Source: a virus (lineage: Duplodnaviria; Heunggongvirae; Uroviricota; Caudoviricetes). Taken from it: a stretch of DNA of 31,872 nucleotides. The position numbers and the translations under genes are program-made. Under the pieces are notes generated by a model. It saw only the letters and a list, made by a program, of their open reading frames with translations, did no database searches and was not told where the DNA came from. Position 1 is the first letter of the stretch; the number at the start of each line of letters is the position of its first letter. The stretch lies in IMG/VR virus record IMGVR_UViG_3300045988_180666; one strand, given 5' to 3'. Shown here in pieces: positions 1 to 28,940 of the stretch.

Positions 1-1362
1 CCGAAAGACCGCAAGGACCACCATAGTAAGCGTCAGCACCACGAAGGCAGACACGAAAACCGGATGTAGCACCAGACGTATTCCAGAAATAGCTAGTCCA
101 GTAGGTTGACTCGGATGCGCCCGTAGCGGTCGGGAAGTTCTCTAGATGCTCCATCGAGAGCGTCTTGATATAGCCTTCGCCCTTGGTCGGCGAGGTGCTG
201 TAAGCCACCATGCCATCGGTGGAACCTATCGTCCACGTGCCGTAGATGGACGGTGCCACGAGATGGGTCACGGAAGTGTCCTCGTTGCAACGCACCTGCT
301 CGTCATCCATGTGTCGCCACAATAAGCCGAAGCCATTTTTGTAGCCGAAGAAGGATGGTATCTTGGCGGTATAGACCACGGTGCCATCGTCTTTTTTGAC
401 CTCGTAGCTCGCCTCGCCGCAAGCGTCGCCAAGCTCGATGCCAGCCGACATCGGCACGACAGGGCGATAGCCGTTGTAACCACCCCAATCAGGCATCTGT
501 GTCACGCCAGCGCCGAGACCACCCTGGTAGAGACCGTTGGCATCTTTTTGGCTGTTGACGGCATCCTGGTCGTAGTGGGTGCCGAAGATGACCCCGAAGA
601 GCACGGAGATGGCAGAGGTGTGGCGCATGGTGGTGCAGAGCCAGCCTGTGCCGTTTTTGCGGGCAGCAGCACGCCAGTATTCGGTAGTCTGGTTGGTGGC
701 AGCCTTGCCCAGCATGGTGCGGTTGGTGTTATCTAACGTGGAGTCGTTGTTGCCGCCTCGGTAGTTTGTGCCCTCGTTGATGTAGCTCACCAGCTTGCCT
801 GTGCTGCGCTCTAGCGTGGCGAAGCCAGCGGCGGAGATGCTGCCCACAGGTATCTTGTAATTGTACTCGCCTGGTATCGGCGTAGGGCTGACCATCTCGT
901 AATGGAGTCTGCCCACGGTCTTGATGACCATGTACCACTCCTTGCCCCAGCCCCACTGGTAGTGCCCCTCTGAGCCATCGAGCTTGGCTGTCTCGCCGGT
1001 GGCATACTTGTGGTGGTCTTTGGAGTCGAGCTTGCGACGGGAGTGGTCATTCTTGACCAGATAACAGCCCAGACCCAGCTCCGTTGGTAGGGTCTGCAGT
1101 AACTCTAGCGAGCCCACATAAGTGGCGGCTTTAGGGGTTGCATTGTCGAGGTTCCACACTCGACCACACCAAGGATGCTGTCCCATTTGGACGGCGCTTT
1201 TGAGCGACATCTGCTCAGACCTGCCGGATTTTTTGTCGAAGACCTCGACAATCTTGTCAGTGGCGCTCATGTCTGACTGTGGGAGGTCGTCAACCTGTTG
1301 ACCTCCATCGAAAGCGGCTATGATAGCCTTGAGCTTACTCTCTTCTTCTGATGTTAATGCCA
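1..1362 (-). CDS. Hypothetical phage protein, N-terminal 454 codons (gene continues past window start); possibly virion/tail-associated
   Basis: Hand translation from ATG at 1362-1360 (MALTSEEESKLK...) runs stop-free to position 1. Absent from ORF track, presumably because no stop lies in-window. No recognisable domain. Confidence 0.6.
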
Positions 1363-1385
1363 TAATAAAAATTATATTTAATCGA

Positions 1386-2150
1386 TTAAACAATGCGTAA
1401 TTTATCACCAACTTTTCTAAGCTTGCCCGATGCCGACAGGCGAAGGCGAGGCTGGCGCACGGTGATGCTGACCTCTTGCCAGAGCGGTGTGTTGGCGGTG
1501 GGGATGACCCAGAACTTGGTGGTGCCCTCGCCCTTGATGATGAGGTTGCCGCTTGGGTCTGCCACGAGCGAGTCGCCCTCGGCTCGCTGGAAGAGCACGC
1601 TCTGAGGGAGGTAGCTCGGCAGGATCTGCACGGCGATGCGCAGAGCCACCTTGTTGCGTAGGCTTATCTCGGGGAGATAGGTCAGGTTCATGCGAGCTGG
1701 CGCGATGAAGCCTGTGGTTATCTGAGCGGCGAGACCATCCATCTGCGCTATCTTGGCATCGGCTCGCTTGGATGCCGCGTCAGCCTCTGCAGCCTTGGTC
1801 TCTGCCAAGGCTGCCTGTGATGCTGCAGCCTCGCCCTGCTCGCCAGCCGCCTTGGCTGCGCTCTGGGCGAGGTTAGCCGCCTTGTTGGCATCGTCGGCCG
1901 CACCCTGCGCTCTGACGGTCGGTGTCTTGTCGAGCCACAAGCGCCACTTGGCGTTGGTATCTGAAGGAGTCGTCGTGTTGCCATCCTCTAGGGAGGCGAA
2001 GACTCCTGACGATGTGTGAACGATGTCGCCCTCGTCGTAGCCCTTGACGGTCTGGCCATCCTCATCTTGATAGGAGTAGCCCGACTGCCAGGTGCCCTGG
2101 TCGGTGAAGGCGACATTGCCCACGATAATGATGTTTGTGTTATCTGCCAT
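1386..2150 (-). CDS. Hypothetical phage protein with Ala/Gln-rich coiled-coil-like centre (tail-fibre-like)
   Basis: ORF track, 254 aa. Tightly packed in minus-strand gene string. Central AAKAAGEQGEAAASQAALAETKAAEADAASKRADAKIAQ segment. Confidence 0.6.
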   Translation of the reverse strand: MADNTNIIIVGNVAFTDQGTWQSGYSYQDEDGQTVKGYDEGDIVHTSSGVFASLEDGNTTTPSDTNAKWRLWLDKTPTVRAQGAADDANKAANLAQSAAKAAGEQGEAAASQAALAETKAAEADAASKRADAKIAQMDGLAAQITTGFIAPARMNLTYLPEISLRNKVALRIAVQILPSYLPQSVLFQRAEGDSLVADPSGNLIIKGEGTTKFWVIPTANTPLWQEVSITVRQPRLRLSASGKLRKVGDKLRIV

Positions 2151-2156
2151 AATGAT

Positions 2157-2999
2157 TTATACTTTAATGACTAACTTGTTTCTGCGCTTGACAACGTGTT
2201 CAGCGACATGACTGCCGTAGTCGATCATGAGGAGTTTGTTGCGCCGTTGACGGAACGCCGGATACATGGCACCGCCTCGGGCGATGACTCCTGTATCGAC
2301 ATAGGTGTGCTTGGAGAGATCCCACTGCCACCAGTTGCCGTTGTCGCCCATCTTGGGTGGATGGTCGTTGAGCTCCTGGGCTAGGTTGGTCTGCTTCTCG
2401 CTCTCGGTGAGGGCTGTGAGCGTATCATCGATGCGCTTGTTCTCGGCGGTGACACGACCCGCCTCGGCGGCTATGCGAGCATTTTCGGCTGTCGCTCGCT
2501 TGATCTCTGAATCCATGCGAGCTTGCTCTTGGGACTGTCGGGTCTGCTCGGCAGCTTGTCTCTTGGCCTCGTTGCTCTCAATGGCAGCCTTGGAAGAGAG
2601 CGTGGCTTCGGTCGCCTGTTTGGCAGCCTCGGTCTGCGACTTGCTGGCACTGACCGCATCCTCTACCTTTTTGCGTTCGGCGGTGAGGTCAGTTGTCGCC
2701 TTGTTGACGCTAGCCGCCGCATCGTTGGCTTTGCCAGCTGCGGTGTTGGCCTCCTCTGTCGCCTGTTTCGCCTCCTCGATGCGGATATCCACATCTTTAG
2801 TCAAGAGTGACAGCGGTGCGATGACTTGCTTTTGCACACCGTCTTTGCTGTAGAGGGCGGGCATCGTACTGATGCCATCGAGCGAGGTGGCGAGCTCGCA
2901 AGAGAAGATGTTCTTGCTGTGCCGCTGTAGATATTCGTTGAACTTAGGTAAGAGCCGGGCGCATAGCGCCTCGAACTCTGTGTCATTCTCTATGCCCAT
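2157..2999 (-). CDS. Hypothetical phage protein with long charged coiled-coil-like region
   Basis: ORF track, 280 aa. EEAKQATEEANTAAGKANDAAASVNKATTDLTAERKKVEDAVSASKSQTEAAKQ heptad-like region. 6 nt gap to next gene. Confidence 0.6.
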   Translation of the reverse strand: MGIENDTEFEALCARLLPKFNEYLQRHSKNIFSCELATSLDGISTMPALYSKDGVQKQVIAPLSLLTKDVDIRIEEAKQATEEANTAAGKANDAAASVNKATTDLTAERKKVEDAVSASKSQTEAAKQATEATLSSKAAIESNEAKRQAAEQTRQSQEQARMDSEIKRATAENARIAAEAGRVTAENKRIDDTLTALTESEKQTNLAQELNDHPPKMGDNGNWWQWDLSKHTYVDTGVIARGGAMYPAFRQRRNKLLMIDYGSHVAEHVVKRRNKLVIKV

Positions 3000-3002
3000 A
3001 GG

Positions 3003-3299
3003 CTATGATTTTAAGATGTCCTGTTTCCACTCGGCAATCTTGGCGAAGACAGCCCCTGCCTCTTCATCGCTCAGCACGGCAGTGTTGATGCGACATGAGA
3101 GGTTGGTATCCATAAAGCTGATGTATCCAGCACCGCTCTCGGAGGCTGGTGCATCATCTTTGGACTCTGTACGTTTATAGACCTCACCGGAAAAAGAGAC
3201 CTTGTCATCTCGCTTTGTCTTGGTGAACTTGACGAAAACGCCTGTAACAACCTCAATCTCCTGGATGTCGGTTGTCGTAACTGTTGACTCTACCTTCAT
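3003..3299 (-). CDS. Hypothetical small phage protein
   Basis: ORF track, 98 aa. Start overlaps stop region of upstream gene (3299-3302). Confidence 0.5.
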   Translation of the reverse strand: MKVESTVTTTDIQEIEVVTGVFVKFTKTKRDDKVSFSGEVYKRTESKDDAPASESGAGYISFMDTNLSCRINTAVLSDEEAGAVFAKIAEWKQDILKS

Positions 3300-3301
3300 A
3301 A

Positions 3302-3604
3302 TTAATCTTGCTCTATTAGTTTAACAATCTGACAATATACCCCTGGCACCAAGGAAGCCTTGGCGACCTCTTTGATCATGGTTAAGTCTTCGGTCGTACA
3401 CTCGACCTCACTTGGTTTAGTGTGCATCTGCACACTCAGGTTGTAGGCTCTCTTAAGAGACTCATCATCAGCCTTGACGCTGTTATTGCTTCCGTTGAAC
3501 AGATGAAGTCCGAGCACCTCATTCATCATCTGAGGCTGTCCGTTGCTGTCTGTCATCACCCCGCCCCTGTAGTTACGGATGGCGACCTTAAAATTTCTTT
3601 TCAT
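3302..3604 (-). CDS. Hypothetical small phage protein
   Basis: ORF track, 100 aa. 18 nt downstream of the 1159-aa gene. Confidence 0.5.
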   Translation of the reverse strand: MKRNFKVAIRNYRGGVMTDSNGQPQMMNEVLGLHLFNGSNNSVKADDESLKRAYNLSVQMHTKPSEVECTTEDLTMIKEVAKASLVPGVYCQIVKLIEQD

Positions 3605-3622: not shown

Positions 3623-6600
3623 TTAATATGCGTGGTTCAGCTTGCGCGCTGTGTATTTGGTCGTGTAGTCACTCACCTTGTTGCCCATGGTTGAGTTATA
3701 GACCAGCAGGAACGTCGCACTGTCGCCCTGTCCCATCTCTATGTAATCTTTGTTGCCGCAGTTCTCATCGAGAATCAAAGGTAACTCCTCTTTGTTCCAT
3801 GCGTAGGAATCGCTTTTGTCTTTGATCTTGTTGCGCCCATAAATGAAGAAGTTTGTCGTGCCTGGCTCAGCGACCACCGTAAATGTCACGGCGAAGTTGG
3901 TAGATGAGCCACAGCCTAATGCGCTGCGCACCTCAGACAGTGTTGGCAGCGTTATGCCGCTTGACGAGACGTAGCTGTAGATGAGCCAGACGTTATTCTC
4001 AGAAATCTTGGCATAGCCATTATAGATGGTGTTTTTTGTGCTAAGCGCATATCTGCTATACTTATATCCACCTATCCATCCATTGAGTACGCCATTGCCA
4101 GCACCTGTGAAAGCAAAATTATAGGCACCGTTTTTAGCCGAGAGTATGGCTGCGATATTGTAACCAAGCCCCCACCAGTCGCTGCTGTCCTCATTTTCGA
4201 ATCGAGCCACCGCACGCTGTCCTGATGACGCTGGTAGTACGTTGCCACCGATGCCCGCAAAGCATTTATGGGTATCGTTGCGAAATATGATGTATGCATC
4301 ATTGGTAAATGGGTCGTTTGTCAGACCCGTGCCCTGGATAGTGAATCCAGCGATCTTGCCCGCCAATGCCTCCATGGAGCCATCTTTGTTGATTTTGAAA
4401 TTGCTGTTGGCCGTGACCACACCGTTAAGGTTGATTTGGTCTGCCGTGATGGTGGCAGAGGAGATGCCGTTGGCAATCATTGTCTTGATGGTAGCCTCGG
4501 ATAGAATCTTGCCATCGACACCCTCGATTTTTGTAGTCAGCGCATTGTAGTCTGCCGTCACAAGCAAGCCACCTTTGTTTTTGAGCGTGCCATCGGCATT
4601 GAATCGCTCGCTCATCAGGGCGTTGTAGTCAGCGGTGGTGATAAGATAGCTCGTATCTTTGAGCTTGCCATTGGCATCGAAACGAGCAACTGCCGAAGAC
4701 CACGAATCGGCGTTTTGACTGACTAACGATATAGTCGGACCATAATCGTTGCGTATGTCTGAGCCTACGCTGTCGGCGTGTCTCCTGGCTTCGGCAACGG
4801 AACTGTTGAGGGCATTGTAGTTGTCAGACATAGTCCCTTGCAAAGTGTTTTTGGCTGCATTCAGCTCGTCTTTTGTCGCAGCCTTGCCCACCGTGGTATT
4901 GATGCCATTGACCGTTATCTTTAACTCAGCGAGTGCCGCCTTGGTGCCGTTGGCAGTATTGGTGACGCTCTCGACACGTGCAGTGATGCTGTCGATGTCG
5001 GTGTAGATGCCAGAAATTTTCTCGTTTGTGCTATCCTGCCAGGTGTTGATGAGGTCGATGCGACCTGCCTCTATCTCTATTCTTGACGAGAGTGTTGTGT
5101 TGAGTTCGCCGTATCTCTTATCGACATATAGGCGTATTGCCTCTTTCTCAGCGTCCAGCTCGATGCCGAGCTGAGTTGTGGTACCATTGACCTTGTCGAT
5201 GTTTTGTCCCAGCAGCTTGATGTTTTTGGCCGTCTGAAGTATTTGTGTCGAGACGGTCTTGCTCAGGTTGTCGAGCGGCTCGTCGGTGATGGTGAGCAGC
5301 GCGACGTAGATGTCTCCTGTATATCGGAGCACGAAGTCGCCGGTGCCATTCCACTTGCCATTTAGCTCTACCGTCTGCCACTCTGCCGAGTATGGCACGC
5401 TGACGCTCTGGGCTGACAGGTCGTTGGTCTTGCCTTCGACAGCCTTGCAACCCTCGAAGCCAAAGGTGAGGGTGCCAGCAGTCTTGGCGTAGATGCGAGC
5501 ACTTATATATAAGGTGTCTTGCACCTCGGTGTAGTCATCGCCAGTGGTGTTCATGCCATCCTCGCCTTTTTCTGCCGATGGCTGGGTATATTCCTTGTGG
5601 GTACCGGGTTTGCGGATGAGATCATTGGCTTGTTTGATGCCGCTGTCCTGTATGTGCAGCATGTTGCGACCCTCGTTGTTGTCGATGCTCACTCGGTGGT
5701 TGCCACTCACGGTGGCGGCACCATTGACCATGACAGGTAAGCCATTGGCATCGACCCAGAACTGGGACTCGTCTGTATCGTCGATGGTCCAGCCATCAAT
5801 GAGCTGCTCATCGTTATAGCCTATCGCCGTCAGAAACTGACCGTTATGGAGGTAGTTGTTCTCCTCTGTCGCCTCGTAGGAGGTCTGTGCGAAGCGGGTG
5901 GCGAACTGGTTCTGCAGCATCTGTATTTTGGTGTCGATGCTCTCACCTGTGCGGCGGAGCACGAAGTCGCCCGTGGCGTAGAGGTTCTGCAGGAACTCAC
6001 CGAAGCCTGATAGTGCACCGAAGAGTGGATGGGTGATGCCCCGTAAGTTGCCGAGGCGACCTTTGAGCGCATTGTCTGGGTCTGTCTTGAGACCATAGAT
6101 GATGTCCATGTAGGGCGTATCGCTGCCCACAGTCATCATCTGTATGATGCCCTTGCGGTCGGGGTCGGTGAGGTTGTCGACCCTAACAAAAGTGTCTCGC
6201 TTGGTGATGAGCTGCTCTGCGGTGGCACCCTCCATCGATGAGGTGAAGTTCTTGAACTTGACCCATGCTAGCATATCCTCGCCACTGCCCTCGCTGCCCA
6301 CCTCTGTCACGATAAGCTCGTATCGCTTGGTGACATAGTGATTGTTTTCGGTGGAGGGCATGCCATTGTACTGCTGCACCATCACGTAGTCATCCTTGCG
6401 GAATGGGTTGTACATCCTGCCCTCGTGGGTGTCGAGATAGACCCTGCCTGTCTCTGGATCGTAGTGGTCAACCTCTAGCATCGCCGTGAAGATGCGGTTG
6501 TCATTCTCGCCCAAGAGTTGGGAGATAATCATCTCGAAGATGCGCATGGTACCACGCACGATGAGATTATCGAGCTCTAGACCATACCTATTCTCTTGCA

Positions 6601-7102
6601 CCCCGGCAGCGTTGGTCGTGGGGTTGTTGGCGAGTCGCCAGCCCTTGCCATCGAGGAAGCCCGAGACGAAGTCGGGAGAGCCTATGGTATCGTCAAAACG
6701 AGCAGCGCCCTTGACGTGCAGCGCACTGACTGTCGCCAAGCCCCACGCCAGGATCTCTTCGATGCAAAGCTTGTAACCCCCATTCTCTTTTGTGGCGAGG
6801 CAGAAGCCTTTTTGACCAGCCTCGGAGTAGTCATCAGTGGCGATGGAGTGGGCGATGATGTCGCCCTCTTTGGAGAAAGAAAAGAGGTTGCCTATCTTGA
6901 TGCCCTTGAGAAAGGTGATGAGCCCATGGGCTGTATCGTCGTTGATGGCGGAGAGTTTATCGTTGTCAGCAGAGGAAGCATAGTCGAGCAGGGACAGGAA
7001 GGCGTTGCCAATGCGGCTTGCCGTATTGGCGTGCTTGACTCTCTCGTCACGGATGCCCTCGAAAGCCTCTCTGATTTTGTTGATGTCTTTATTTTCTGCC
7101 AT
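3623..7102 (-). CDS. Large virion protein, 1159 aa; candidate tail fibre/spike or receptor-binding protein
   Basis: ORF track, longest ORF in window. ATG at 7102 lies 14-23 nt downstream of TGCAAAGATA promoter motif (7116-7125). Globular N and C regions flank a central repetitive segment (residues about 640-800). Function inferred from size and architecture only. Confidence 0.7.
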   Translation of the reverse strand: MAENKDINKIREAFEGIRDERVKHANTASRIGNAFLSLLDYASSADNDKLSAINDDTAHGLITFLKGIKIGNLFSFSKEGDIIAHSIATDDYSEAGQKGFCLATKENGGYKLCIEEILAWGLATVSALHVKGAARFDDTIGSPDFVSGFLDGKGWRLANNPTTNAAGVQENRYGLELDNLIVRGTMRIFEMIISQLLGENDNRIFTAMLEVDHYDPETGRVYLDTHEGRMYNPFRKDDYVMVQQYNGMPSTENNHYVTKRYELIVTEVGSEGSGEDMLAWVKFKNFTSSMEGATAEQLITKRDTFVRVDNLTDPDRKGIIQMMTVGSDTPYMDIIYGLKTDPDNALKGRLGNLRGITHPLFGALSGFGEFLQNLYATGDFVLRRTGESIDTKIQMLQNQFATRFAQTSYEATEENNYLHNGQFLTAIGYNDEQLIDGWTIDDTDESQFWVDANGLPVMVNGAATVSGNHRVSIDNNEGRNMLHIQDSGIKQANDLIRKPGTHKEYTQPSAEKGEDGMNTTGDDYTEVQDTLYISARIYAKTAGTLTFGFEGCKAVEGKTNDLSAQSVSVPYSAEWQTVELNGKWNGTGDFVLRYTGDIYVALLTITDEPLDNLSKTVSTQILQTAKNIKLLGQNIDKVNGTTTQLGIELDAEKEAIRLYVDKRYGELNTTLSSRIEIEAGRIDLINTWQDSTNEKISGIYTDIDSITARVESVTNTANGTKAALAELKITVNGINTTVGKAATKDELNAAKNTLQGTMSDNYNALNSSVAEARRHADSVGSDIRNDYGPTISLVSQNADSWSSAVARFDANGKLKDTSYLITTADYNALMSERFNADGTLKNKGGLLVTADYNALTTKIEGVDGKILSEATIKTMIANGISSATITADQINLNGVVTANSNFKINKDGSMEALAGKIAGFTIQGTGLTNDPFTNDAYIIFRNDTHKCFAGIGGNVLPASSGQRAVARFENEDSSDWWGLGYNIAAILSAKNGAYNFAFTGAGNGVLNGWIGGYKYSRYALSTKNTIYNGYAKISENNVWLIYSYVSSSGITLPTLSEVRSALGCGSSTNFAVTFTVVAEPGTTNFFIYGRNKIKDKSDSYAWNKEELPLILDENCGNKDYIEMGQGDSATFLLVYNSTMGNKVSDYTTKYTARKLNHAY

Positions 7103-7115
7103 ATTTTTTATTTTG

Positions 7116-7125
7116 ATGCAAAGAT
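7116..7125 (-). promoter_or_regulatory. Promoter -7 element (TATCTTTG on minus strand) for the 1159-aa gene
   Basis: Plus-strand TGCAAAGATA 14-23 nt from ATG at 7102; reverse complement matches Bacteroidetes -7 consensus TAnnTTTG. Confidence 0.55.
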
Positions 7126-7154
7126 AGGTATGATGAGAACTATATAAAAATACG

Positions 7155-12479: not shown

Positions 12480-12489
12480 TGCAAAGATA
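12480..12489 (-). promoter_or_regulatory. Promoter -7 element for the 353-aa gene operon
   Basis: TGCAAAGATA about 22 nt from ATG at 12458; preceded (on minus strand) by hairpin + T-run. Confidence 0.55.
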
Positions 12490-12501: not shown

Positions 12502-12584
12502 AGAAAATAAAAATACCTGATTGTCATCACGACAACCAGGTATCGACTCATGGAGCGGACCACGCCTTGTTAAGCCTAAGGCTC
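12502..12584 (-). terminator. Tandem hairpins with T-run between the 103-aa gene and the 353-aa gene promoter
   Basis: Hairpin ATGGAGC (12549-12555) / GCTCCAT (12578-12584). Imperfect 12 bp inverted repeat TACCTGATTGTC (12514-12525) / GACAACCAGGTA (12531-12542) followed on minus strand by TTTTTATTTTCT. Confidence 0.45.
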
Positions 12585-12635: not shown

Positions 12636-12947
12636 TTACTCTTCGGGCTGTGCGCAGTTGATTATCCAGACGAGTCTGCCACCCTCGACAGACTTCATCT
12701 TGAAGCCGTGCTCGACCATGTACTCGGTGATGACGGGGATGGGAGCGACGACCATGCCGCTGATGGCCTCTTGTATATCTTTGGAGGATAGGAAGTCAAC
12801 GCATTGGCTGTATGGGTCATCGCCCGGTGTGTCGCCCTCGAAGTAAGCGTCGAGCGCCATGCGCACATAGTCGATCTTGCTCTCTTGCTCTGACTGTTGC
12901 TGCTCGTCGCTGTTAGCACTGAAGCCCATCACACGCATACGTTTCAT
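12636..12947 (-). CDS. Hypothetical small acidic phage protein
   Basis: ORF track, 103 aa. 4 nt overlap with upstream gene. Followed by tandem hairpins and a T-run. Confidence 0.5.
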   Translation of the reverse strand: MKRMRVMGFSANSDEQQQSEQESKIDYVRMALDAYFEGDTPGDDPYSQCVDFLSSKDIQEAISGMVVAPIPVITEYMVEHGFKMKSVEGGRLVWIINCAQPEE

Positions 12948-13213
12948 GCCTCACCTCCTTTCGTCTCCAGTGCTATGTTGATGGTCTTGAAGAGCTTGCT
13001 CATGTGGTCGAAGTTGTTGAGCATGAGTAGCACTTTGTCGGCACCGCCGAGGTCTTCGACACAGTTGGTCACCACCTCGTCTGAGATAAGCACCTTTTTG
13101 ACTTGCTCTAGGTACTCGATGAAGTAGCTGAGCTGGTTGACATCCATCATTTCTACGAGCGCATTCCAGACCTCTGCTGTCATGTGCATATTTGTTGCGT
13201 TGTTTGTGTTCAT
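12944..13213 (-). CDS. Hypothetical small phage protein
   Basis: ORF track, 89 aa. Overlaps upstream and downstream genes by 4 nt each. Confidence 0.5.
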   Translation of the reverse strand: MNTNNATNMHMTAEVWNALVEMMDVNQLSYFIEYLEQVKKVLISDEVVTNCVEDLGGADKVLLMLNNFDHMSKLFKTINIALETKGGEA

Positions 13214-13575
13214 GCTACGACTCCTCCCATCAGATAACCACCAAAGAAAACCACTGCCATGAAGGCTGCGAAGCCTAGTGTGGCCTTGACCACCTCGCCG
13301 TAGGTCACGCTCTCGTCGCAGAGTGCGGTGAAGGTCTCGCTCTCGGTCTTGGCGAGCTTCTTGATTTCACACTTGAGGGTATTGATACCCTCCTCTACGC
13401 TGATGCCTGCAGGTCTCACCTGCGCATCACTAATTAAAATTGAATTCTGCATAATTGCCATCTTATAACCATTATAGACCGACCTTGATGTATAAATACA
13501 ATGGTGGCGGTCACATTCACCGTTGGTTATAAGATGGTAGCTTTCCCAGCGAAGGGCAAGTATCTTACGGATCAT
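13210..13575 (-). CDS. Small membrane protein with single C-terminal transmembrane helix; holin/spanin-like candidate
   Basis: ORF track, 121 aa. Extreme C-terminus ATLGFAAFMAVVFFGGYLMGGVVA is one hydrophobic helix. Internal ATG at about 13461 is an alternative start. Function inferred from topology only. Confidence 0.45.
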   Translation of the reverse strand: MIRKILALRWESYHLITNGECDRHHCIYTSRSVYNGYKMAIMQNSILISDAQVRPAGISVEEGINTLKCEIKKLAKTESETFTALCDESVTYGEVVKATLGFAAFMAVVFFGGYLMGGVVA

Positions 13576-13854: not shown

Positions 13855-14247
13855 TTATTTTTGGAAATAAACTTTTAAAGGGATTGAATTCTCCACATTG
13901 CCAATTTTGAAAGAGAACTGATAGTTGCCCTCTGCAGGGAACTGGAGGTCGGAGAACTCAAAGATGAAGTTGCTGAAGAGAAACTCATCTGAAGGGTGTG
14001 GCTCAATCTTGGAATTGATGGGCTGGCCAAGAATCATCTTGCCAGTGCTCATCTCTGTAACCTCTGCCGAGAACTCTTGCTGAAGTTTGCTTTCCTCGCT
14101 GTTCATCTTAACTCTCGCTACCATGAAGAGGTTGCTCTTAGGCAGCGGTGCTTTTCTTACCACATAGTGGTCAAAAGTGCCCACGATGGTAAGTTTGCCG
14201 TCATTATCTTGTGCAAAGTCACACAATGCAAGAATATCTATGTTCAT
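13855..14247 (-). CDS. Hypothetical protein, gene 3 of lower-GC three-gene cassette
   Basis: ORF track, 130 aa. GC visibly lower than flanking structural genes. Stop directly followed by hairpin + T-run (13815-13848). Confidence 0.55.
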   Translation of the reverse strand: MNIDILALCDFAQDNDGKLTIVGTFDHYVVRKAPLPKSNLFMVARVKMNSEESKLQQEFSAEVTEMSTGKMILGQPINSKIEPHPSDEFLFSNFIFEFSDLQFPAEGNYQFSFKIGNVENSIPLKVYFQK

Positions 14248-14684
14248 TTTATATGTCCTTTAATGTTAGACTCGATAGCCGAGTGTTTGAAAAGTTTTTT
14301 ATAATTGTCGAATGAATATTTGAGTTTGCTCACCGTGCGCTTGTTTGTGCTCACTAGGTTGGCTCCATGTCTGCCAGAGATGCCTTCCTTGGTATTGAAC
14401 TTCAGAGAATTTCTTTTGGAGTCAACCCAAAGCCTGATGGCATCGCCTTGTATCTTGTCACCCACATTGCCATGGACGTTGAGATCTTCTCGTATTTTCT
14501 TGTCCTCTTCGTTGAGCTCAAGAGCTTCGGTGATTTCTACGGAACTATTTCGGTCTAGTTCGTATAATGTCATCTTTTTGCCCGTGATAGGTTCCTCTTT
14601 GAGTCCCTTCCACTCAGCCCTTCTGGCAATGACATCAGCTTTTTTGCCCTCTATGATTTCACCTTCTTTGATATATATAGCCAT
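14244..14684 (-). CDS. Hypothetical protein, gene 2 of lower-GC cassette
   Basis: ORF track, 146 aa. Lys-rich. 4 nt overlap with gene 3. Confidence 0.55.
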   Translation of the reverse strand: MAIYIKEGEIIEGKKADVIARRAEWKGLKEEPITGKKMTLYELDRNSSVEITEALELNEEDKKIREDLNVHGNVGDKIQGDAIRLWVDSKRNSLKFNTKEGISGRHGANLVSTNKRTVSKLKYSFDNYKKLFKHSAIESNIKGHIK

Positions 14685-15112
14685 TATTGGATACTTTTTT
14701 GCATTGATTTTTCACTGAAAGAGAATACCTCAGCCATATCATCAGGCGAGGTGATGCTCATGAGCGATGGGCTGACCTCAAGAGCCACCTCAATGTCTTC
14801 AATGGAAGCATCTTTATCTTGTTTGATGATGTACTTATCCTCATGCTCTTCAATCTCTTTATCAAACTCTTCTTCGGTAATATTGCCGTCAAGCATTTCG
14901 CAATATAGTTTGAAGTAGTTGCGCTCACGTGTGCGGTTGTTAACGGCACGAGTCATCAACTCCTTGAGTCTGTCGGCAGTACTGATGTTGAAAAAGTTAG
15001 CCTTATTGGTAACACCAGCGAATGCAACCTTGCCAGTACCTTTGTCTTGTATAGCCACAACAGGGCTGCCATCAGTTTGGTATGTTGTATATATAGTCGT
15101 TGTATTGCTCAT
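14684..15112 (-). CDS. Hypothetical protein, gene 1 of lower-GC cassette
   Basis: ORF track, 142 aa. ATG at 15112 is about 29 nt downstream of TGCAAAGATA motif (15141-15150). Acidic C-terminal half. Confidence 0.55.
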   Translation of the reverse strand: MSNTTTIYTTYQTDGSPVVAIQDKGTGKVAFAGVTNKANFFNISTADRLKELMTRAVNNRTRERNYFKLYCEMLDGNITEEEFDKEIEEHEDKYIIKQDKDASIEDIEVALEVSPSLMSITSPDDMAEVFSFSEKSMQKSIQ

Positions 15113-15140
15113 AATTCACATCCTGTTTATATTAACACGG

Positions 15141-15150
15141 TGCAAAGATA
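15141..15150 (-). promoter_or_regulatory. Promoter -7 element for the lower-GC three-gene cassette
   Basis: TGCAAAGATA about 29 nt from ATG at 15112; lies downstream of the radC terminator. Confidence 0.55.
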
Positions 15151-15266
15151 CGGATATTTTTTGTAAATCGCAAATTTAATGATAAATTTAACAACAAAAA
15201 TTGCAATAAAGATTGGAAAATGGTATATAAAAAATGCTCGACCGCTTTTTGGCTCTTGCCAGACGC

Positions 15267-15291
15267 TTTCGCCGCAGGCGAAAATTTTTGG
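15267..15291 (+). terminator. Possible plus-strand terminator hairpin adjacent to the radC terminator
   Basis: Stem TTTCGCC (15267-15273) / GGCGAAA (15277-15283), loop GCA, then ATTTTTGG on plus strand. No plus-strand gene ends here, so function unclear. Confidence 0.3.
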
Positions 15292-15320
15292 AAAATGAGG
15301 GGGAAGGTTTTAGCCTTCCC
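15283..15320 (-). terminator. Rho-independent terminator after radC
   Basis: Stem GGGGAAGG (15299-15306) / CCTTCCCC (15313-15320), loop TTTTAG; minus strand continues TCATTTTCCAAAAATT. Confidence 0.6.
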
Positions 15321-15323
15321 CTT

Positions 15324-15338
15324 ACCTTATTATATATA
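15324..15338 (-). repeat. Copy c (15 nt, inverted) of the AT-rich repeat
   Basis: Plus strand ACCTTATTATATATA = reverse complement of TATATATAATAAGGT; between radC stop and its terminator. Confidence 0.65.
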
Positions 15339-15340
15339 TA

Positions 15341-16024
15341 TTATAGCTTTCCTTTGTCGTGGTAGCTGTAGAAGCCATCCTCAGCCAAGATGATATGGTC
15401 CATCAAGAAAAGTCTCATCACCTCGCACGCCTTGGCTATCTTCTGCGTGAGCATATCGTCCGCCTTGCTCGGCTGCGTGCTGTTCGATGGGTGGTTGTGT
15501 GCCACGGCGATGATGGTTGCATTGTTGAGCACGGCTTCTTTCATTATCAGTCGAACGTCCACCGCTGTCTCGGTGATGCCTCCCTCGCTGAGCTTGGTGC
15601 ACTTTATCAGCCTAAAGTTTTGGTTCATCAGCACTACCCAAAAGCCCTCTGTCTCATTGCAGCCTATCATTGGGCGAAGATAGTTGTAGAGTGCCAGGCT
15701 GCTGCCTAGGTCGGTGTTTCTCGCTACCTTTTCCATTTGGTAGCGTCTGCCTAGCTCGATGGCTGCCTGTAGGGCTATCGCCTTGCAGTCTCCAATTCCT
15801 GGTACCACTTCCAGGTCTTCTATTCTCGCCTTGCCGATGTTGCGAAGCGAGTTGCCCATGATGTTATAAATCTGTCGTGCCTGCTCTTGGCTGTCCTTGG
15901 TACCTGCCCCTCTGTTGATTACCAAAGAAATCAAGTCAACGTTGGTAAGGGTGTCGAAACCTTGGTTATAGGCTCTGTACTGCGGTCTCTCCTCCATACA
16001 AAGATTGTTATAATTTTGTCTCAT
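15341..16024 (-). CDS. radC: RadC-like JAB/MPN-domain protein (UPF0758 family)
   Basis: 227 aa. N-terminal helix-hairpin-helix-like VVPGIGDCKAIALQAAIELG. C-terminal AVAHNHPSNSTQPSKADD matches the JAMM motif HxHx7Sx2D typical of RadC family. Confidence 0.8.
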   Translation of the reverse strand: MRQNYNNLCMEERPQYRAYNQGFDTLTNVDLISLVINRGAGTKDSQEQARQIYNIMGNSLRNIGKARIEDLEVVPGIGDCKAIALQAAIELGRRYQMEKVARNTDLGSSLALYNYLRPMIGCNETEGFWVVLMNQNFRLIKCTKLSEGGITETAVDVRLIMKEAVLNNATIIAVAHNHPSNSTQPSKADDMLTQKIAKACEVMRLFLMDHIILAEDGFYSYHDKGKL

Positions 16025-16039
16025 ATCTTTTGTTATTTG

Positions 16040-16564
16040 TTAGTTATACATTCTCTTTGTTCTCGCTAGGAACATCGCTCCCATCACTTGTGCGCCACAT
16101 TCGGCTAGCTCGTTGGCGAACTCTCGGGCGGTCGCTCCGCTCGTCACCACGTCGTCGAAGATGATGACTTTCTTTCCGCTGAAGTACTCTCTATCGAGTG
16201 CCACTCTGTAGTCGAAGCTCTCACACACTCTGTCTGTGCTGAAGTGCTTGGCTGTGCGCTCTCCATAGATGGAAATGTGCTCGTTTCCGTTCTGTACCTT
16301 TGCGCCTTGGCTCACCTTTTGGGCGAAGCGAGAAAAGCGCTTGGTGTACTTCTTTGAGTTGGCTGCTGGAGCGCAAACCATCACGAAGTCGCTGGCTTTG
16401 TCGCCATAGGTGTTGACGAAAGAGCTGACCACCATATCGGCAGCTGCGTCTGTCGCCCACTGCTTTCCATCCTTGAAGGCAAAGATGAAGTTTCTCACTT
16501 GCTCTGCTTGTGCTGAGCGGTCGAAACGCTTGGAGCTGTACTCGTAATAATTGAAAGTTTTCAT
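16040..16564 (-). CDS. Phosphoribosyltransferase (PRTase) domain protein, ComF-like
   Basis: 174 aa. KKVIIFDDVVTSGATAREFANELAECGA matches the PRPP-binding loop of type I PRTases. No N-terminal zinc-ribbon. 15 nt upstream of radC. Confidence 0.7.
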   Translation of the reverse strand: MKTFNYYEYSSKRFDRSAQAEQVRNFIFAFKDGKQWATDAAADMVVSSFVNTYGDKASDFVMVCAPAANSKKYTKRFSRFAQKVSQGAKVQNGNEHISIYGERTAKHFSTDRVCESFDYRVALDREYFSGKKVIIFDDVVTSGATAREFANELAECGAQVMGAMFLARTKRMYN

Positions 16565-17360
16565 ACGCTTAAAATTTTTATTCTAGCCAGAGGGAGGAAG
16601 GAGCTTTTTTATTTGAACTCGTCTTTGCCTGCCCGTCTGAGAGTTTTTTTTATTCTGTCCGTCGGTCGTTTTTGTCGCTTTTTACGGTGCGATGCAGACG
16701 AGCGGAGAAGAGGTATGAAAGCCAAGGAATTTTGCAAAAAGTTTATGGAAAACCGTCATCTCTGATTGCGGAAGGCTGCCGAAAAGTTTTTGGAAAATAG
16801 ATTTATCGGTACTTGGTGCATGCCGTCCGCCGTACCTTTGCACCCGAAAAAGAGATAATGACCGATGGATAACCGATAAAGGGAAAAGCTCTCGGACAGG
16901 AAAAGCGGGCAAAGAAAAGGCTCTGCCTTACCTTGGTGGTTAAGCCTTAGCGACGTTTGAGCGCCATCACGGTCACCACCGCTTGAAAATTCGCAAATTT
17001 TAACCCTAGCGTATGAAATGAAAGATGGAAAATTTGCGTCATCAAAAACACCATGTTTTTCAGACTTCAGGAGGAAAAACATACCTTGGAGCGATGAAAT
17101 CGCAGCATTTGGCATGCTTCGACCCCGAGGTTGAAGATGCCGAATGTGTCGTTTTGCGACAGGTTTTCCACACCCACGGATTGGAAAACCCCGATTTTAT
17201 CGTGGTTTTAGGGATTCAAAGGGAAAATAATTCCCCTTTGTCGGCGATAGCACCCCCCACCGCCCTACGCCCGAGCGCGCCTTCCGCCCCCTTGGAAAAG
17301 ACGGAATATGTAAAAGACCGTTAACGTTTTTGTAGGAATGTAAAAAGCCAAAAGGCACGA

Positions 17361-17394
17361 AAAAAGGGAACACGCTTCGCAGCGCACTCCCCTT
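17361..17394 (-). terminator. Putative terminator after terL
   Basis: Minus strand GGGAGTGCGC-TGCGAA-GCGTGTTCCC (10 bp stem incl. 3 G-U pairs) followed by TTTTTTCG. Confidence 0.45.
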
Positions 17395-17462
17395 ATCGGC
17401 GGTCAAGCAAGAATGCCAGCCACCTAACTTATATAAGAATCGTACTATCTAAAGAAATCAAA

Positions 17463-24074: not shown

Positions 24075-24084
24075 CGCAAAGATA
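24075..24084 (-). promoter_or_regulatory. Promoter -7 element for protease-capsid operon, embedded in a 12 bp-arm inverted repeat
   Basis: CGCAAAGATA about 22 nt from ATG at 24053; forms right arm of palindrome TATATCTTTGCG (24053-24064) / CGCAAAGATATA (24075-24086). Confidence 0.5.
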
Positions 24085-25215: not shown

Positions 25216-25225
25216 TGCAAAGATA
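25216..25225 (-). promoter_or_regulatory. Promoter -7 element for the 194-aa gene
   Basis: TGCAAAGATA about 20 nt from ATG at about 25197. Confidence 0.55.
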
Positions 25226-28906: not shown

Positions 28907-28932
28907 AATTCTTTTCCATTGTAAATTTGCTT

Positions 28933-28940
28933 GCAAAATT
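28933..28940 (-). promoter_or_regulatory. Promoter -7 element for primase-helicase gene
   Basis: Plus-strand CAAAATTA = reverse complement TAATTTTG, about 28 nt upstream of ATG at about 28906. Confidence 0.45.

What the first reader, a model, noticed from the sequence alone, without database searches (positions are those of the whole stretch)
3623..7102. 1159-aa protein with globular ends and central repetitive segment, followed by two further coiled-coil proteins: likely host-recognition module
The largest protein in the window has its own promoter and is followed by small proteins and two Ala/Glu/Lys-rich coiled-coil proteins (280 and 254 aa) and a large partial ORF. This arrangement resembles tail fibre/spike clusters that determine host range. 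No tape-measure-like protein is evident, which may point to a short-tailed virion or to tail genes lying outside the window.
Basis: inference. Interest (0 to 1): 0.35.

Follow-up and report, generated by a model that had tools for sequence, protein, structure and literature searches.

The report
Phage tail fibre host-recognition gene cassette
The 1159-residue protein is a modular tail-fibre protein of a common gut Bacteroidales temperate phage; it heads a swappable host-recognition gene cassette that ends in a tail protein hypermutated by a retroelement, which is an ordinary kind of module but an unannotated and very widespread family.

Summary
The ORF is real: 3623-7102, minus strand, 1159 aa. 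It is followed by genes for 100, 98, 280 and 254 aa proteins and a partial ORF.

It is best read as a tail-fibre or tail-tip protein.
- Residues ~50-1100 are homologous to the Hankyphage "minor tail protein" (PHROG 22546), which sits right after the tape measure protein (TMP) and a small tail protein. The window protein lacks that protein's ~520-aa hub-like N-terminus.
- A conserved core (121-610) defines a family of at least 1208 clusters at 50% identity. It has no Pfam model.
- AlphaFold (pLDDT 82) shows all-beta domains plus a jelly roll like a carbohydrate-binding module (CBM).
- After the core come a coiled-coil-like shaft of variable length and an exchangeable C-terminal tip.

Among near-identical phages, the tip, the 100/98-aa genes and the 280-aa gene form a recombination hot spot.

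The partial ORF at the left edge is the target of a diversity-generating retroelement (DGR). In relatives, nearly all (about 99%) of roughly 250 differences between the template repeat (TR) and the variable repeat (VR) lie at TR adenines. The VR begins at window 61-1.

A 1454-aa TMP lies outside the window in syntenic genomes, so the phage is long-tailed.

This is a new member of a known kind, of moderate interest.

The parts
3623..7102 (-). Gene for the 1159-aa modular tail-fibre / tail-tip protein (whole ORF including stop)
   Evidence: ORF. PHROG 22546 at E 8e-97. More than 3945 homologues. tblastn matches to Bacteroides phage tail proteins. BFVD 'Tail protein' matches at E 1e-30.
7119..7126 (-). 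TATCTTTG, a Bacteroidetes-type -7 promoter box 16 nt upstream of the ATG, inside the 52-nt intergenic gap
   Evidence: The motif occurs 37 times against 12 expected and recurs upstream of four other gene starts. Function was not tested.
6953..7102 (-). Residues 1-50: N-terminal helical segment found only in the stand-alone form. Inferred to dock the fibre to the tail tip.
   Evidence: Helices 7-20 and 27-44 in a low-confidence model. Heptad-like stretch 4-55. Homology to the fused Hankyphage-type proteins starts at residue ~47-50. Residues 1-120 stay 100% identical with the upstream genes when the core is only 82% identical.
5273..6742 (-). Residues 121-610: the conserved core that defines the family. 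It consists of all-beta domains (~150-400) followed by a jelly roll.
   Evidence: 1208 clusters at 50% identity match it. 25 invariant columns among 65 diverse members. AlphaFold mean pLDDT 81.9.
5273..5905 (-). Residues ~400-610: beta-sandwich resembling a carbohydrate-binding module (CBM)
   Evidence: Foldseek against PDB matches CBM4, CBM16, CBM22 and CBM6 and a hyaluronan-binding module. Probability 1.0, TM-score (target-normalised) 0.5-0.59.
4463..5272 (-). Residues 611-880: shaft of variable length, coiled-coil-like and polar
   Evidence: Heptad scan. Weak profile matches to P22 gp26, sigma-1 and fibritin. Length and identity vary among homologues (43-100%).
4529..4684 (-). Residues 807-858: tandem duplication of a 26-aa unit (RFDANGKLKDTSYLITTADYNALMSE / RFNADGTLKNKGGLLVTADYNALTTK)
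   Evidence: Self-comparison, score 70 at offset 26.
3626..4462 (-). Residues 881-1159: conserved neck (881-935) plus an exchangeable C-terminal tip domain (936-1159)
   Evidence: The tip is replaced in proteins that are 98-100% identical over residues 1-880, and is 100% identical in proteins that are ~90% identical elsewhere. The same domain occurs as stand-alone 300-450-aa proteins at the distal end of other tail modules, next to DGR cassettes. Residues 914-1013 are 62% identical to the end of a 2037-aa ORF in the unrelated phage MT835559.
3302..3604 (-). 100-aa protein, a conserved partner of the fibre. Inferred chaperone or adaptor.
   Evidence: A homologue (30-38% identity) lies directly after the fibre gene in Hankyphage-like and other prophages. 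It is only 44% identical in phages whose upstream genes are 98-100% identical, so it co-varies with the tip. No Pfam or PHROG match.
3003..3299 (-). 98-aa protein, a variable accessory gene within the hot spot
   Evidence: Absent in L096 and 37% identical in L098/L099. No family match.
2157..2999 (-). 280-aa fibrous protein: N-terminal domain, Ala/Glu/Lys-rich coiled coil (63-205), small C-terminal domain
   Evidence: PHROG 19280 at E 1.9e-17. It is fused with the C-terminal half of the 254-aa protein in Hankyphage-like prophages. 65-73% identical in sister phages.
1386..2150 (-). 254-aa fibrous protein: N-terminal domain, Ala-rich coiled coil (78-150), C-terminal beta-rich domain
   Evidence: PHROG 20680 at E 1.4e-30. 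86% identical in the unrelated phage MT835559.
1..1363 (-). First 454 codons of a 490-aa tail protein that is the DGR target and the likely adhesin
   Evidence: Start codon. In L007 its homologue matches PHROG 5302 'tail protein' at E 3e-52. Homologues are annotated tail proteins of crAss-like, Porphyromonas and Bacteroides phages.
1..61 (-). 5' half of the DGR variable repeat (VR). The rest of the VR, the template repeat (TR) and the reverse transcriptase (RT) gene lie beyond the window edge.
   Evidence: Six of six differences from the TR of sister locus L096 are at TR adenines. In 25 related loci nearly all of about 250 TR/VR mismatches are at TR adenines.

Best explanation
The 1159-aa protein is a tail-fibre (tail-tip) structural protein of a temperate, long-tailed Bacteroidales phage of about 44.6 kb. 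It is probably trimeric. It is the stand-alone version of a protein that in Hankyphage-type phages is fused behind a ~520-aa hub-like domain encoded right after the tape measure.

Proposed working, by region:
- The first ~50-120 residues dock the fibre to the tail tip (inferred).
- The invariant core (121-610) forms a rigid proximal body. Its CBM-like jelly roll may make reversible contact with surface polysaccharide (inferred from fold only).
- A coiled-coil-like shaft of variable length projects the exchangeable C-terminal tip (936-1159).
- The tip either binds a receptor or carries the downstream fibrous proteins (inferred).

The tip, the two small genes (100 and 98 aa) and the 280-aa gene form a recombination hot spot, flanked by the better-conserved 254-aa gene. 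The cassette ends in a 490-aa tail protein whose C-terminus is rewritten by a DGR.

Host range would thus be tuned in two ways: by swapping modules and by adenine-directed hypermutation.

Shown here: homology, synteny, domain layout, mosaicism, and the TR/VR adenine pattern.
Inferred: trimer state, docking, sugar binding, and which component binds the receptor.
For: Family and position:
- PHROG 22546 at E 8e-97. The Hankyphage 1338-aa 'minor tail protein' is that PHROG's prototype (E 0). It lies after the TMP and a 154-aa tail protein.
- In prophages L087, L092 and L093 the order is TMP, a ~155-aa protein, then [520-aa N-terminus + homologue of residues ~50-1000], then a 100-aa homologue, a fused 280/254 homologue, the 491-aa DGR target and RT.
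- In L089 a stand-alone 1155-aa form follows a TMP (PF10145 E 1e-22) and a 719-aa protein.

Structure:
- The core model has pLDDT 81.9.
- It contains a CBM-like sandwich.
- Best BFVD matches are 'Tail protein' at E 1e-30.
- The shaft resembles trimeric coiled-coil fibres.

Mosaicism:
- P0016-25 are 98-100% identical over residues 1-880 with the tip replaced. P0002-11 are ~90% identical with a 100% identical tip.
- In L096 and L098, flanking genes are 98-100% identical while the tip, the 100-aa gene (44%), the 98-aa gene (absent or 37%) and the 280-aa gene (65-73%) diverge.
- An unrelated phage, MT835559, shares the distal cassette at 76% nucleotide identity.
- The tip domain also occurs as a separate gene at the distal end of other tail modules.

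DGR.

TMP outside the window.
Against: - There are no virion, binding or oligomer data.
- The whole-protein model was poor (pLDDT 41). The N-terminal 100 residues, the shaft and the tip therefore have no reliable structure.
- The all-beta part of the core (~150-400) has no informative PDB match. Its many invariant charged residues could mean an enzymatic or other role that I cannot see.
- In this phage lineage the fibre gene is not next to the TMP. It follows the portal gene and four small genes, with the lysis genes lying between it and the TMP. Position alone is therefore weaker evidence here than in Hankyphage.
- No sequence similarity was found between the 630-aa protein after the TMP and the hub-like N-terminus of the fused form. 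The 'split gene' docking partner is unidentified.
- The CBM resemblance is fold-level only (TM 0.5-0.59, 10-17% identity).
Confidence: 0.8

Rival explanations
1. The protein is a purely structural carrier: a shaft or platform that displays the real receptor-binding proteins (the 280- and 254-aa fibres and the DGR-diversified 490-aa protein). It does not bind a host receptor itself.
For: - The DGR target downstream is the obvious adhesin.
- The tip co-varies with the small downstream genes and the 280-aa gene, as a docking surface would.
- The same order, fibre then DGR target, is kept in Hankyphage-like prophages.
Against: - The tip domain is also found as an independent distal tail protein in other phages.
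- It is exchanged like a specificity domain.
- The CBM-like domain suggests direct glycan contact.
- The 490-aa gene stays 97-98% identical when the tip is swapped. The two are therefore not obligatorily matched.
Confidence: 0.3
2. It is the tail-tip hub itself (Tal, tail-associated lysin, gp27-like). It would close the tail tube and open the cell envelope.
For: - Its homologue in Hankyphage-type phages occupies the Tal position after the TMP and a small tail protein.
- That homologue's N-terminus weakly matches PF06605 Prophage_tail (E 0.0042, below threshold) and PHROG 3475 minor tail protein (E 0.001).
Against: - The window protein lacks exactly that ~520-aa N-terminal region. Homology starts at its residue ~47-50.
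- No lysin or peptidase domain was found.
- The gene is not adjacent to the TMP in this lineage.
Confidence: 0.06
3. It is a tailspike-type depolymerase that degrades capsular polysaccharide.
For: - Bacteroides phage infection depends on capsular polysaccharide (own knowledge).
- The core carries many invariant Asp, Glu and Arg residues.
- A CBM-like domain often accompanies glycan-active enzymes.
- There is one low-ranking Foldseek hit to CBA120 TSP4 (E 3e-3, TM 0.15-0.17).
Against: - No beta-helix appears in the confident core model.
- There is no Pfam or PDB-sequence match to pectate-lyase, sialidase or other depolymerase families.
Confidence: 0.04
4. It is not a tail component. It would instead be a head fibre or decoration protein, an internal or ejection protein, or a cell-surface adhesin carried as cargo.
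For: - The gene follows the portal and four small unannotated genes rather than the TMP.
- CBM- and Ig-like domains also occur in capsid decoration proteins (own knowledge).
Against: - Synteny with TMP-proximal tail genes holds across several distinct prophage or phage contexts: Hankyphage and the Hankyphage-like prophages L087, L092 and L093, plus L089 and L091.
- The distal cassette is shared with tail-module ends next to the lysis genes.
- Structural neighbours are annotated as tail proteins.
Confidence: 0.03

Closest known systems
Hankyphage p00 / Bacteroides phage jmh42_hp 'minor tail protein' (XPZ22086, 1338 aa; prototype of PHROG 22546, function listed as unknown)
   Same: - Residues 142-656 and 834-919 of the window protein align to it at 25-37% identity.
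- Hankyphage-like prophage versions align over residues ~50-1000 at 41-44%.
- Both are followed by a ~100-aa homologous gene, a coiled-coil fibre gene and a DGR-diversified tail protein with its RT.
   Different: - The Hankyphage protein carries an extra ~520-aa N-terminal hub-like domain and lies immediately after the TMP and a 154-aa tail protein.
- The window protein replaces that domain with ~50 unique helical residues and is encoded far from the TMP.
- The Hankyphage DGR target is a 2245-aa fibre, not a 490-aa protein.
- Neither protein has been characterised experimentally as far as I found.
Modular siphophage tail fibres and Tal C-terminal extensions with CBM-type domains (general class: conserved N-terminal anchor, fibrous shaft, exchangeable distal receptor-binding domain)
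   Same: - Conserved N-terminus with a swapped C-terminus.
- Coiled-coil-like shaft.
- CBM-like beta-sandwich.
- Small downstream genes that co-vary with the tip, as tail-fibre assembly chaperones do.
   Different: - No sequence relationship to any solved fibre.
- No Pfam family.
- The ~250-residue all-beta part of the core has no recognisable counterpart in PDB.
Phage DGR tropism-switching cassettes (Bordetella BPP-1 Mtd/Brt; Hankyphage DGR) - applies to the partial ORF at window 1-1363
   Same: - A VR near the 3' end of a distal tail gene, with a TR ~400 nt downstream in a ~540-nt non-coding gap.
- An RT gene comes next.
- Nearly all of about 250 TR/VR mismatches are at TR adenines, and the TR is rich in AAC/AAT.
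   Different: - No Avd-like gene was recognised. The 135-aa protein after the RT is acidic.
- The 524-aa RT has a ~45-aa insertion, 'LGVKLAQ' in place of the (I/V/L)GxxxSQ motif, and 'FMDN' where DGR RTs have YxDD. PMC3521204 reports both aspartates as 100% conserved in 155 DGR RTs.
- Only the first half of the VR lies inside the window.

Membership tests
PHROG 22546 (Hankyphage-type large tail protein; function unannotated) | Significant match to the family profile | tested here: met
   E 8e-97 over 3 stretches. The Hankyphage protein matches at E 0 over profile positions 2-1116. The window protein lacks the first ~500 profile positions.
Phage tail fibre / receptor-binding protein (functional class) | Encoded in the distal part of the tail module (after TMP, Dit and Tal, before lysis genes) | tested here: inconclusive
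   Met in relatives. In this lineage the gene precedes the lysis genes but the TMP lies after them.
Phage tail fibre / receptor-binding protein (functional class) | Conserved N-terminal anchor with an exchangeable C-terminal specificity domain | tested here: met
   Region-by-region identities among 120 homologues. Locus comparisons. The tip domain exists as a stand-alone gene elsewhere.
Phage tail fibre / receptor-binding protein (functional class) | Fibrous, trimeric shaft | tested here: inconclusive
   Heptad-like segments and weak profile matches to trimeric fibres at E 7e-5 to 1e-4. The monomer AlphaFold model of the shaft is unreliable. No multimer prediction was available.
Phage tail fibre / receptor-binding protein (functional class) | Present in virions and binds a host surface receptor | not testable with these tools
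   Needs virion proteomics, cryo-EM and adsorption assays.
Tal / tail-associated lysin (gp27-like hub, PF06605 Prophage_tail type) | N-terminal hub domain that closes the tail tube, encoded right after TMP and Dit | tested here: not met
   The ~520-aa N-terminal domain of the fused homologues is absent; homology starts at residue ~47-50. No Pfam hit.
Carbohydrate-binding module (CBM4/9/16/22/6-type beta-sandwich) | Jelly-roll beta-sandwich fold | tested here: met
   Foldseek probability 1.0, target TM 0.5-0.59, for residues ~400-610 in a model with local pLDDT mostly above 85. The first, poorer model gave the same matches.
Carbohydrate-binding module (CBM4/9/16/22/6-type beta-sandwich) | Sequence membership of a CAZy/Pfam CBM family and a ligand-binding cleft with aromatic residues | tested here: not met
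   No Pfam CBM hit at E<=0.01. Identity to CBMs is 10-17%. The binding site was not analysed, so this is fold resemblance only.
Tailspike depolymerase | Right-handed parallel beta-helix or other glycanase catalytic domain | tested here: not met
   No beta-helix in the confident core model. No family or PDB sequence hit. The tip domain structure remains unknown.
Diversity-generating retroelement (for the partial ORF at 1-1363) | TR/VR pair whose differences fall at TR adenines | tested here: met
   25 related loci, with nearly all of about 250 mismatches at adenines. For the window VR part, 6 of 6 differences from the TR of L096 are at adenines.
Diversity-generating retroelement (for the partial ORF at 1-1363) | Adjacent RT of the DGR clade with (I/V/L)GxxxSQ and YxDD motifs | tested here: inconclusive
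   An RT-like gene is adjacent in relatives: PHROG 1423 at E 3.7e-53, and RVT_1 at E 2e-4, below the curated cut-off. Its motifs read LGVKLAQ and FMDN. The gene lies outside the window.
Diversity-generating retroelement (for the partial ORF at 1-1363) | Accessory protein Avd | tested here: not met
   The 135-aa ORF after the RT is acidic and was not recognisable to me as Avd-like (by eye). Its L007 counterpart (131 aa) gave no Pfam or PHROG match. bAvd is present in a different DGR cassette, L101.

The most novel reading that the evidence does not exclude
The cassette may be a two-tier host-range device, and its retroelement may be unusual.

First tier: the 1159-aa protein would be the stand-alone half of a split hub-fibre protein. 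Its conserved ~490-aa core includes a ~250-residue all-beta region with no PDB counterpart. That core would be a widespread platform in Bacteroidales phages, carrying an exchangeable tip.

Second tier: a DGR-diversified adhesin. The DGR would be driven by an undescribed clade of reverse transcriptases that keep adenine mutagenesis although the second catalytic aspartate of YxDD is replaced (F-M/A-D-N).
Probability: 0.25. Interest if true: 0.6.

Novelty: new member of a known kind. Interest (0 to 1): 0.4.

Why it matters
This phage lineage is very common in gut metagenomes. The 1159-aa cluster alone holds 460 sequences, and one cluster of the neighbouring 630-aa protein holds 1465. The fibre's core family spans at least 1208 clusters at 50% identity. 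Yet it has no Pfam model, and its PHROG is labelled 'unknown function'.

Recognising it as the proximal body of a modular tail fibre has three uses:
- It gives an anchor for annotating host-recognition modules in Bacteroidales phages and prophages.
- It locates the recombination hot spot that probably sets host range.
- It flags the adjacent DGR target as the likely adhesin.

This helps host prediction, and phage engineering against Bacteroides, Prevotella or Parabacteroides. It does not open a new biological principle.

Tried and rejected
- AlphaFold on the full 1159 aa with 34 close homologues gave pLDDT 41. Only the CBM-like part was usable, so I re-modelled residues 101-680 with 65 diverse representatives.
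- Pfam hits ATG14 and DUF1664 and DUF16 are far below their cut-offs and lie on the coiled-coil region. I treated them as compositional noise.
- The PDB-sequence hit to a GH65 phosphorylase (E 0.0045, residues 36-144) was not reproduced with the deeper profile. I rejected it.
- Foldseek hits to Cry, Vip and iota toxins and to meprin have whole-chain TM below 0.2. I took them to reflect mainly their jelly-roll domains.
- PDB sequence searches found nothing for the tip or the 490-aa protein, and only insignificant hits (E 0.08 and 1.4) for the 254-aa protein.
- BLAST of the 630-aa post-TMP protein against the hub-like N-termini, the L089 719-aa protein and the small window proteins found nothing. 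Its database relatives are all unannotated. The docking partner therefore stays unknown.
- The 152-aa protein upstream has the size of the Hankyphage 154-aa tail protein but no detectable similarity to it.
- The short-tailed (podovirus) idea was rejected once the TMP was found.
The ~150-400 domain could therefore not be searched on its own.

Full report
**1. Observation**

All long ORFs of the window lie on the minus strand. The ORF at 3623-7102 starts with ATG, encodes 1159 aa and is the largest in the window.

It is followed on the same strand by ORFs of 100 aa (3302-3604), 98 aa (3003-3299), 280 aa (2157-2999) and 254 aa (1386-2150). A further ORF starts at ATG 1363-1361 and runs off the left edge. 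In the syntenic locus L003 that last gene is 490 codons long, so the window holds its first 454.

The 280- and 254-aa proteins have Ala/Glu/Lys-rich, Pro-free, heptad-like stretches at residues 63-205 and 78-150. The large protein has such stretches at 610-788 and 853-884. Its only clear internal repeat is a 26-aa tandem duplication at 807-858.

The 52-nt gap upstream of the gene holds TATCTTTG (7119-7126, minus strand), 16 nt before the ATG. By my own knowledge this matches the Bacteroidetes -7 promoter box TAnnTTTG. The motif occurs 37 times against 12 expected, and exact copies on the coding strand precede four other gene starts. The promoter claim is therefore plausible but untested. A sigma-70 scan shows nothing there.

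**2. What kind of element the window is**

The window carries these genes:
- a ClpP-type prohead protease (PF00574 at E 4e-14; PHROG 94);
- a large terminase, only weakly matched (PHROG 2 at E 1e-4; 27-34% identity to terminases of Flavobacterium, Porphyromonas, Polaribacter and Microcystis phages);
- a putative capsid protein and portal, assigned by position and size only.

Related viral contigs are about 44.5 kb. They end with a 1454-aa tape measure protein (PF10145 at E 9.6e-16; PHROG 25337 at E 6.6e-53), a 630-aa protein and an integrase on the other strand.

In these genomes the order downstream of the finding is: 490-aa tail protein, a non-coding gap of about 540 nt, a 524-aa RT-like protein, 135- and 82-aa proteins, an amidase, a DUF6549 protein, a 121-aa protein, then the TMP.

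The phage is therefore temperate and long-tailed. Its tape measure simply lies outside the window.

Relatives of the large protein occur in Duncaniella, Prevotella, Parabacteroides, Rikenellaceae and Muribaculaceae genomes. With the promoter motif, this places the host in Bacteroidales. The exact host is unknown.

**3. The 1159-aa protein: family**

Pfam gives only sub-threshold coiled-coil noise. PHROGs gives family 22546, labelled 'unknown function', at E 8e-97.

tblastn against annotated phages finds 40 records, almost all Bacteroides phages of the Hankyphage type. The match falls on the gene that follows the TMP and a 154-aa 'tail protein'. One record calls that gene 'minor tail protein'. 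That Hankyphage protein is the prototype of PHROG 22546 (E 0).

The word-indexed search found more than 3945 homologues. An exhaustive HMMER search with residues 1-660 found 1208 clusters at 50% identity, 214 of them below E 1e-30. The matched block is usually residues ~120-660, and it sits anywhere from the N-terminus to ~1000 residues into proteins of 800-2900 aa. The family is thus defined by a portable, strongly conserved core.

**4. Structure**

The whole-protein model was poor (pLDDT 41). Re-modelling residues 101-680 with 65 diverse representatives gave mean pLDDT 81.9. In protein numbering the model shows:
- a run of beta domains at about 150-400;
- a helix near 390;
- a beta-sandwich at about 400-610;
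- long beta strands at 614-680.

Foldseek against PDB matches only the sandwich. Hits are CBM4, CBM16, CBM22 and CBM6 and a hyaluronan-binding module, at probability 1.0 and target TM 0.5-0.59. The preceding ~250 residues have no informative match.

Against predicted viral structures, the best matches are 'Tail protein' entries of uncultured gut siphoviruses and myoviruses (E 1e-30 to 1e-27, 21-23% identity). Further down come CenC-type CBM tail proteins, 'tip attachment protein J' and S74 fibre proteins.

A family profile weakly matches trimeric coiled-coil fibres over the shaft: P22 gp26 at E 6.7e-5, sigma-1 at E 1.3e-4, plus fibritin and trimeric autotransporters. No beta-helix and no enzyme family was detected.

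**5. Synteny shows where it belongs**

In Hankyphage-like prophages of Duncaniella and Parabacteroides (L087, L092, L093) the gene order is:
- TMP;
- a ~155-aa tail protein;
- a 1470-1624-aa protein whose residues from ~511-523 onward align with residues ~47-50 onward of the window protein (41-44% identity over more than 900 aa);
- a ~100-aa homologue of the window's 100-aa gene;
- one 344-361-aa protein that combines the N-terminus and coiled coil of the window's 280-aa protein with the C-terminal half of its 254-aa protein (L087, L092);
- a 491-aa homologue of the partial ORF (L087, L092);
- an RT (L087, L092).

L093 keeps the order only as far as the ~100-aa gene. There a 705-aa protein matches the 280-aa protein alone, and neither the 491-aa homologue nor an RT was detected.

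The first ~520 residues of these fused proteins are 60-64% identical among themselves. They weakly resemble Tal-type proteins (PF06605 at E 0.004; PHROG 3475 at E 0.001). The window protein lacks this region. Only its first ~50 residues, which are predicted helical and heptad-like, are unique to it.

In L089 a stand-alone 1155-aa form follows a TMP (PF10145 at E 1e-22) and a 719-aa protein.

So the protein is the fibre part of a hub-plus-fibre unit that exists in fused and split forms. It is not the hub. The docking partner in this phage is unidentified. The 630-aa post-TMP protein is the positional candidate, but it shows no detectable similarity to the hub-like domain and has no annotated relatives.

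**6. Mosaicism marks a specificity hot spot**

I compared the protein region by region against 120 homologues:
- P0016-P0025 are 98-100% identical over residues 1-880, but their last ~225 residues are replaced. Only ~87-100 residues remain alignable, at ~50% identity.
- P0002-P0011 are ~89-92% identical in the N-terminus and core, yet 100% identical in the tip.
- P0037-P0063 have a 100% identical N-terminal 120 residues, an 82% core, a 43% shaft and no tip homology.

At locus level, L096 and L098 share 98-100% identical genes from the 353-aa protein through the 152-aa protein. Identity then collapses within the 1159-aa gene. The 100-aa gene falls to 44%, the 98-aa gene is absent or 37%, and the 280-aa gene is 65-73% with length changes. 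Identity recovers to 86-97% in the 254-aa gene and 97-98% in the 490-aa gene.

An otherwise unrelated fecal phage, MT835559, shares the distal cassette. Its packaging module differs: the large terminase is only 21% identical, and no window head protein matched. It has a putative 1254-aa TMP and a 2037-aa ORF. It shares 76% nucleotide identity over window 2-2398, and the end of its 2037-aa ORF matches residues 914-1013 of the window protein at 62%.

The tip domain (881-1159) also exists as independent 300-450-aa proteins at the distal end of other tail modules, next to DGR cassettes and lysis genes.

This pattern is what is expected of host-specificity determinants and their cognate assembly or adaptor proteins.

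**7. The partial ORF is a DGR target**

In L007 its homologue matches PHROG 5302 'tail protein' at E 3e-52. Homologues are annotated tail proteins in crAss-like phages (in cr50_1 next to an RT gene), in Bacteroides phage Versailles, and as the last tail gene of Porphyromonas phages.

In L003, L007 and 23 further related loci, a ~117-nt segment near the 3' end of the gene is repeated ~400 nt downstream in the non-coding gap. Nearly all of roughly 250 mismatches between the two copies fall at adenines of the downstream copy, with three exceptions; the first 23 loci counted gave 222 of 225. The downstream copy is rich in AAC/AAT.

The window contains the first 61 nt of the variable repeat (positions 61-1, minus strand). 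It differs from the template repeat of sister locus L096 at six positions, all template adenines. The 1400 nt of this gene region as a whole are 98.6% identical between the two.

This is the signature of a diversity-generating retroelement, and it makes the 490-aa protein the most likely adhesin of the module.

The adjacent 524-aa protein is RT-like (PHROG 1423 at E 3.7e-53; RVT_1 at E 2e-4, below threshold). Aligned with the Hankyphage and cr50_1 RTs, it has a ~45-aa insertion, LGVKLAQ at the SQ motif, and FMDN where they have YCDD. The Duncaniella and Parabacteroides versions read FADN.

A survey of 155 DGR RTs reported both aspartates as 100% conserved, and AQ as a known rare variant of the SQ motif (PMC3521204). 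All 25 loci with the adenine pattern carry the FMDN form. This is outside the window and I did not pursue it further.

**8. Mechanism proposed**

Shown: the protein belongs to a tail-protein family; its domain order; its fission and fusion relationship to a TMP-proximal hub-fibre protein; the recombination hot spot; and the DGR on the last gene of the cassette.

Inferred:
- It is trimeric.
- Its N-terminal helices dock on the tail tip.
- The CBM-like domain contacts surface glycans.
- The shaft sets reach.
- The tip either binds a receptor or carries the 280/254-aa fibres.
- The 100- and 98-aa proteins are tip-specific chaperones or adaptors.

Host range would then be tuned by cassette exchange (coarse) and by DGR mutagenesis (fine).

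**9. Verdict**

The interpretation as a host-recognition module is supported, and the alternative 'tail genes outside the window' is correct.

The protein is a new, unannotated but very widespread member of a known kind (modular phage tail fibres). Interest is moderate, at 0.4. The interest comes mainly from the size of the unannotated family, the clean hot-spot anatomy, and the adjacent DGR with a non-canonical RT motif.

Noticed in passing
window 1-61 (minus strand); rest in L003 17049-17549, L007 5441-5957, L096 ~17280-17400: The left edge of the window holds the first half of a DGR variable repeat at the 3' end of the 490-aa tail protein gene. In 25 related loci nearly all of about 250 TR/VR mismatches are at TR adenines. 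The TR and the RT lie beyond the window.
   Followed up: yes
L003 17761-19335 (outside the window); also L007 6162-7733, L087 17099-18739, L092 16252-17418: The DGR reverse transcriptase of this lineage reads F-M-D-N (F-A-D-N in Hankyphage-like Duncaniella and Parabacteroides prophages) where DGR RTs have YxDD. It also has LGVKLAQ in place of (I/V/L)GxxxSQ, and a ~45-aa insertion between the two motifs. The adenine pattern is nevertheless present in all 25 loci. PMC3521204 reports the two aspartates as 100% conserved in 155 DGR RTs. No Avd-like gene was recognised.
   Followed up: partly
L007 8462-17437; L003 19848-23489 (downstream of the window's left edge): Tail gene order is unusual. The fibre/DGR cassette is followed by the lysis genes (amidase, DUF6549), and only then by a 1454-aa tape measure, an unannotated 630-aa protein and the integrase. 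No tail tube gene was identified anywhere.
   Followed up: partly
window 7119-7126, 12482-12489, 15143-15150, 24077-24084, 25218-25225 (all minus strand): Exact TATCTTTG copies sit 8-30 nt upstream of five gene starts on the coding strand. TAnnTTTG is three-fold enriched in the window (37 against 12 expected). This fits Bacteroidetes-type promoters and a Bacteroidales host.
   Followed up: partly
window 12512-12544 (minus strand): A strong terminator-like hairpin (15-bp stem followed by a T-run) lies just upstream of the TATCTTTG box and the 353-aa gene. This suggests an operon boundary before the portal and fibre block.
   Followed up: no
window 13855-16564 (minus strand): A block encodes a ComF-like phosphoribosyltransferase (174 aa), RadC (227 aa), two small proteins and a DUF6941 protein. 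It is 99-100% identical to L003, while the small genes next to it (12636-13575) are only 46-69% identical. It has lower GC (0.43-0.48) than the structural genes, so it looks like a mobile accessory block.
   Followed up: no
window 1386-2999 compared with L087 13961-15046, L089 13750-14784, L092 13609-14643: The 280-aa and 254-aa proteins correspond to one fused 344-361-aa protein in other prophages (N-terminus and coiled coil of the first, C-terminal domain of the second). Both window proteins end in a similar basic tail (…RRNKLVIKV and …GDKLRIV).
   Followed up: partly
window 2-2398 compared with MT835559.1 28474-31048 (L004): A fecal phage that otherwise shares almost nothing with the window carries the distal cassette at 76% nucleotide identity: half of the 280-aa gene, the 254-aa gene and the 490-aa gene. 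Apart from the cassette, only a 21%-identical terminase and one small protein matched. This indicates horizontal exchange of the module.
   Followed up: partly
window 25952-28936 (minus strand): The 994-aa protein at the early end matches only PHROG 28855 (unknown function). I did not examine it further; any role in replication is a guess from position.
   Followed up: no
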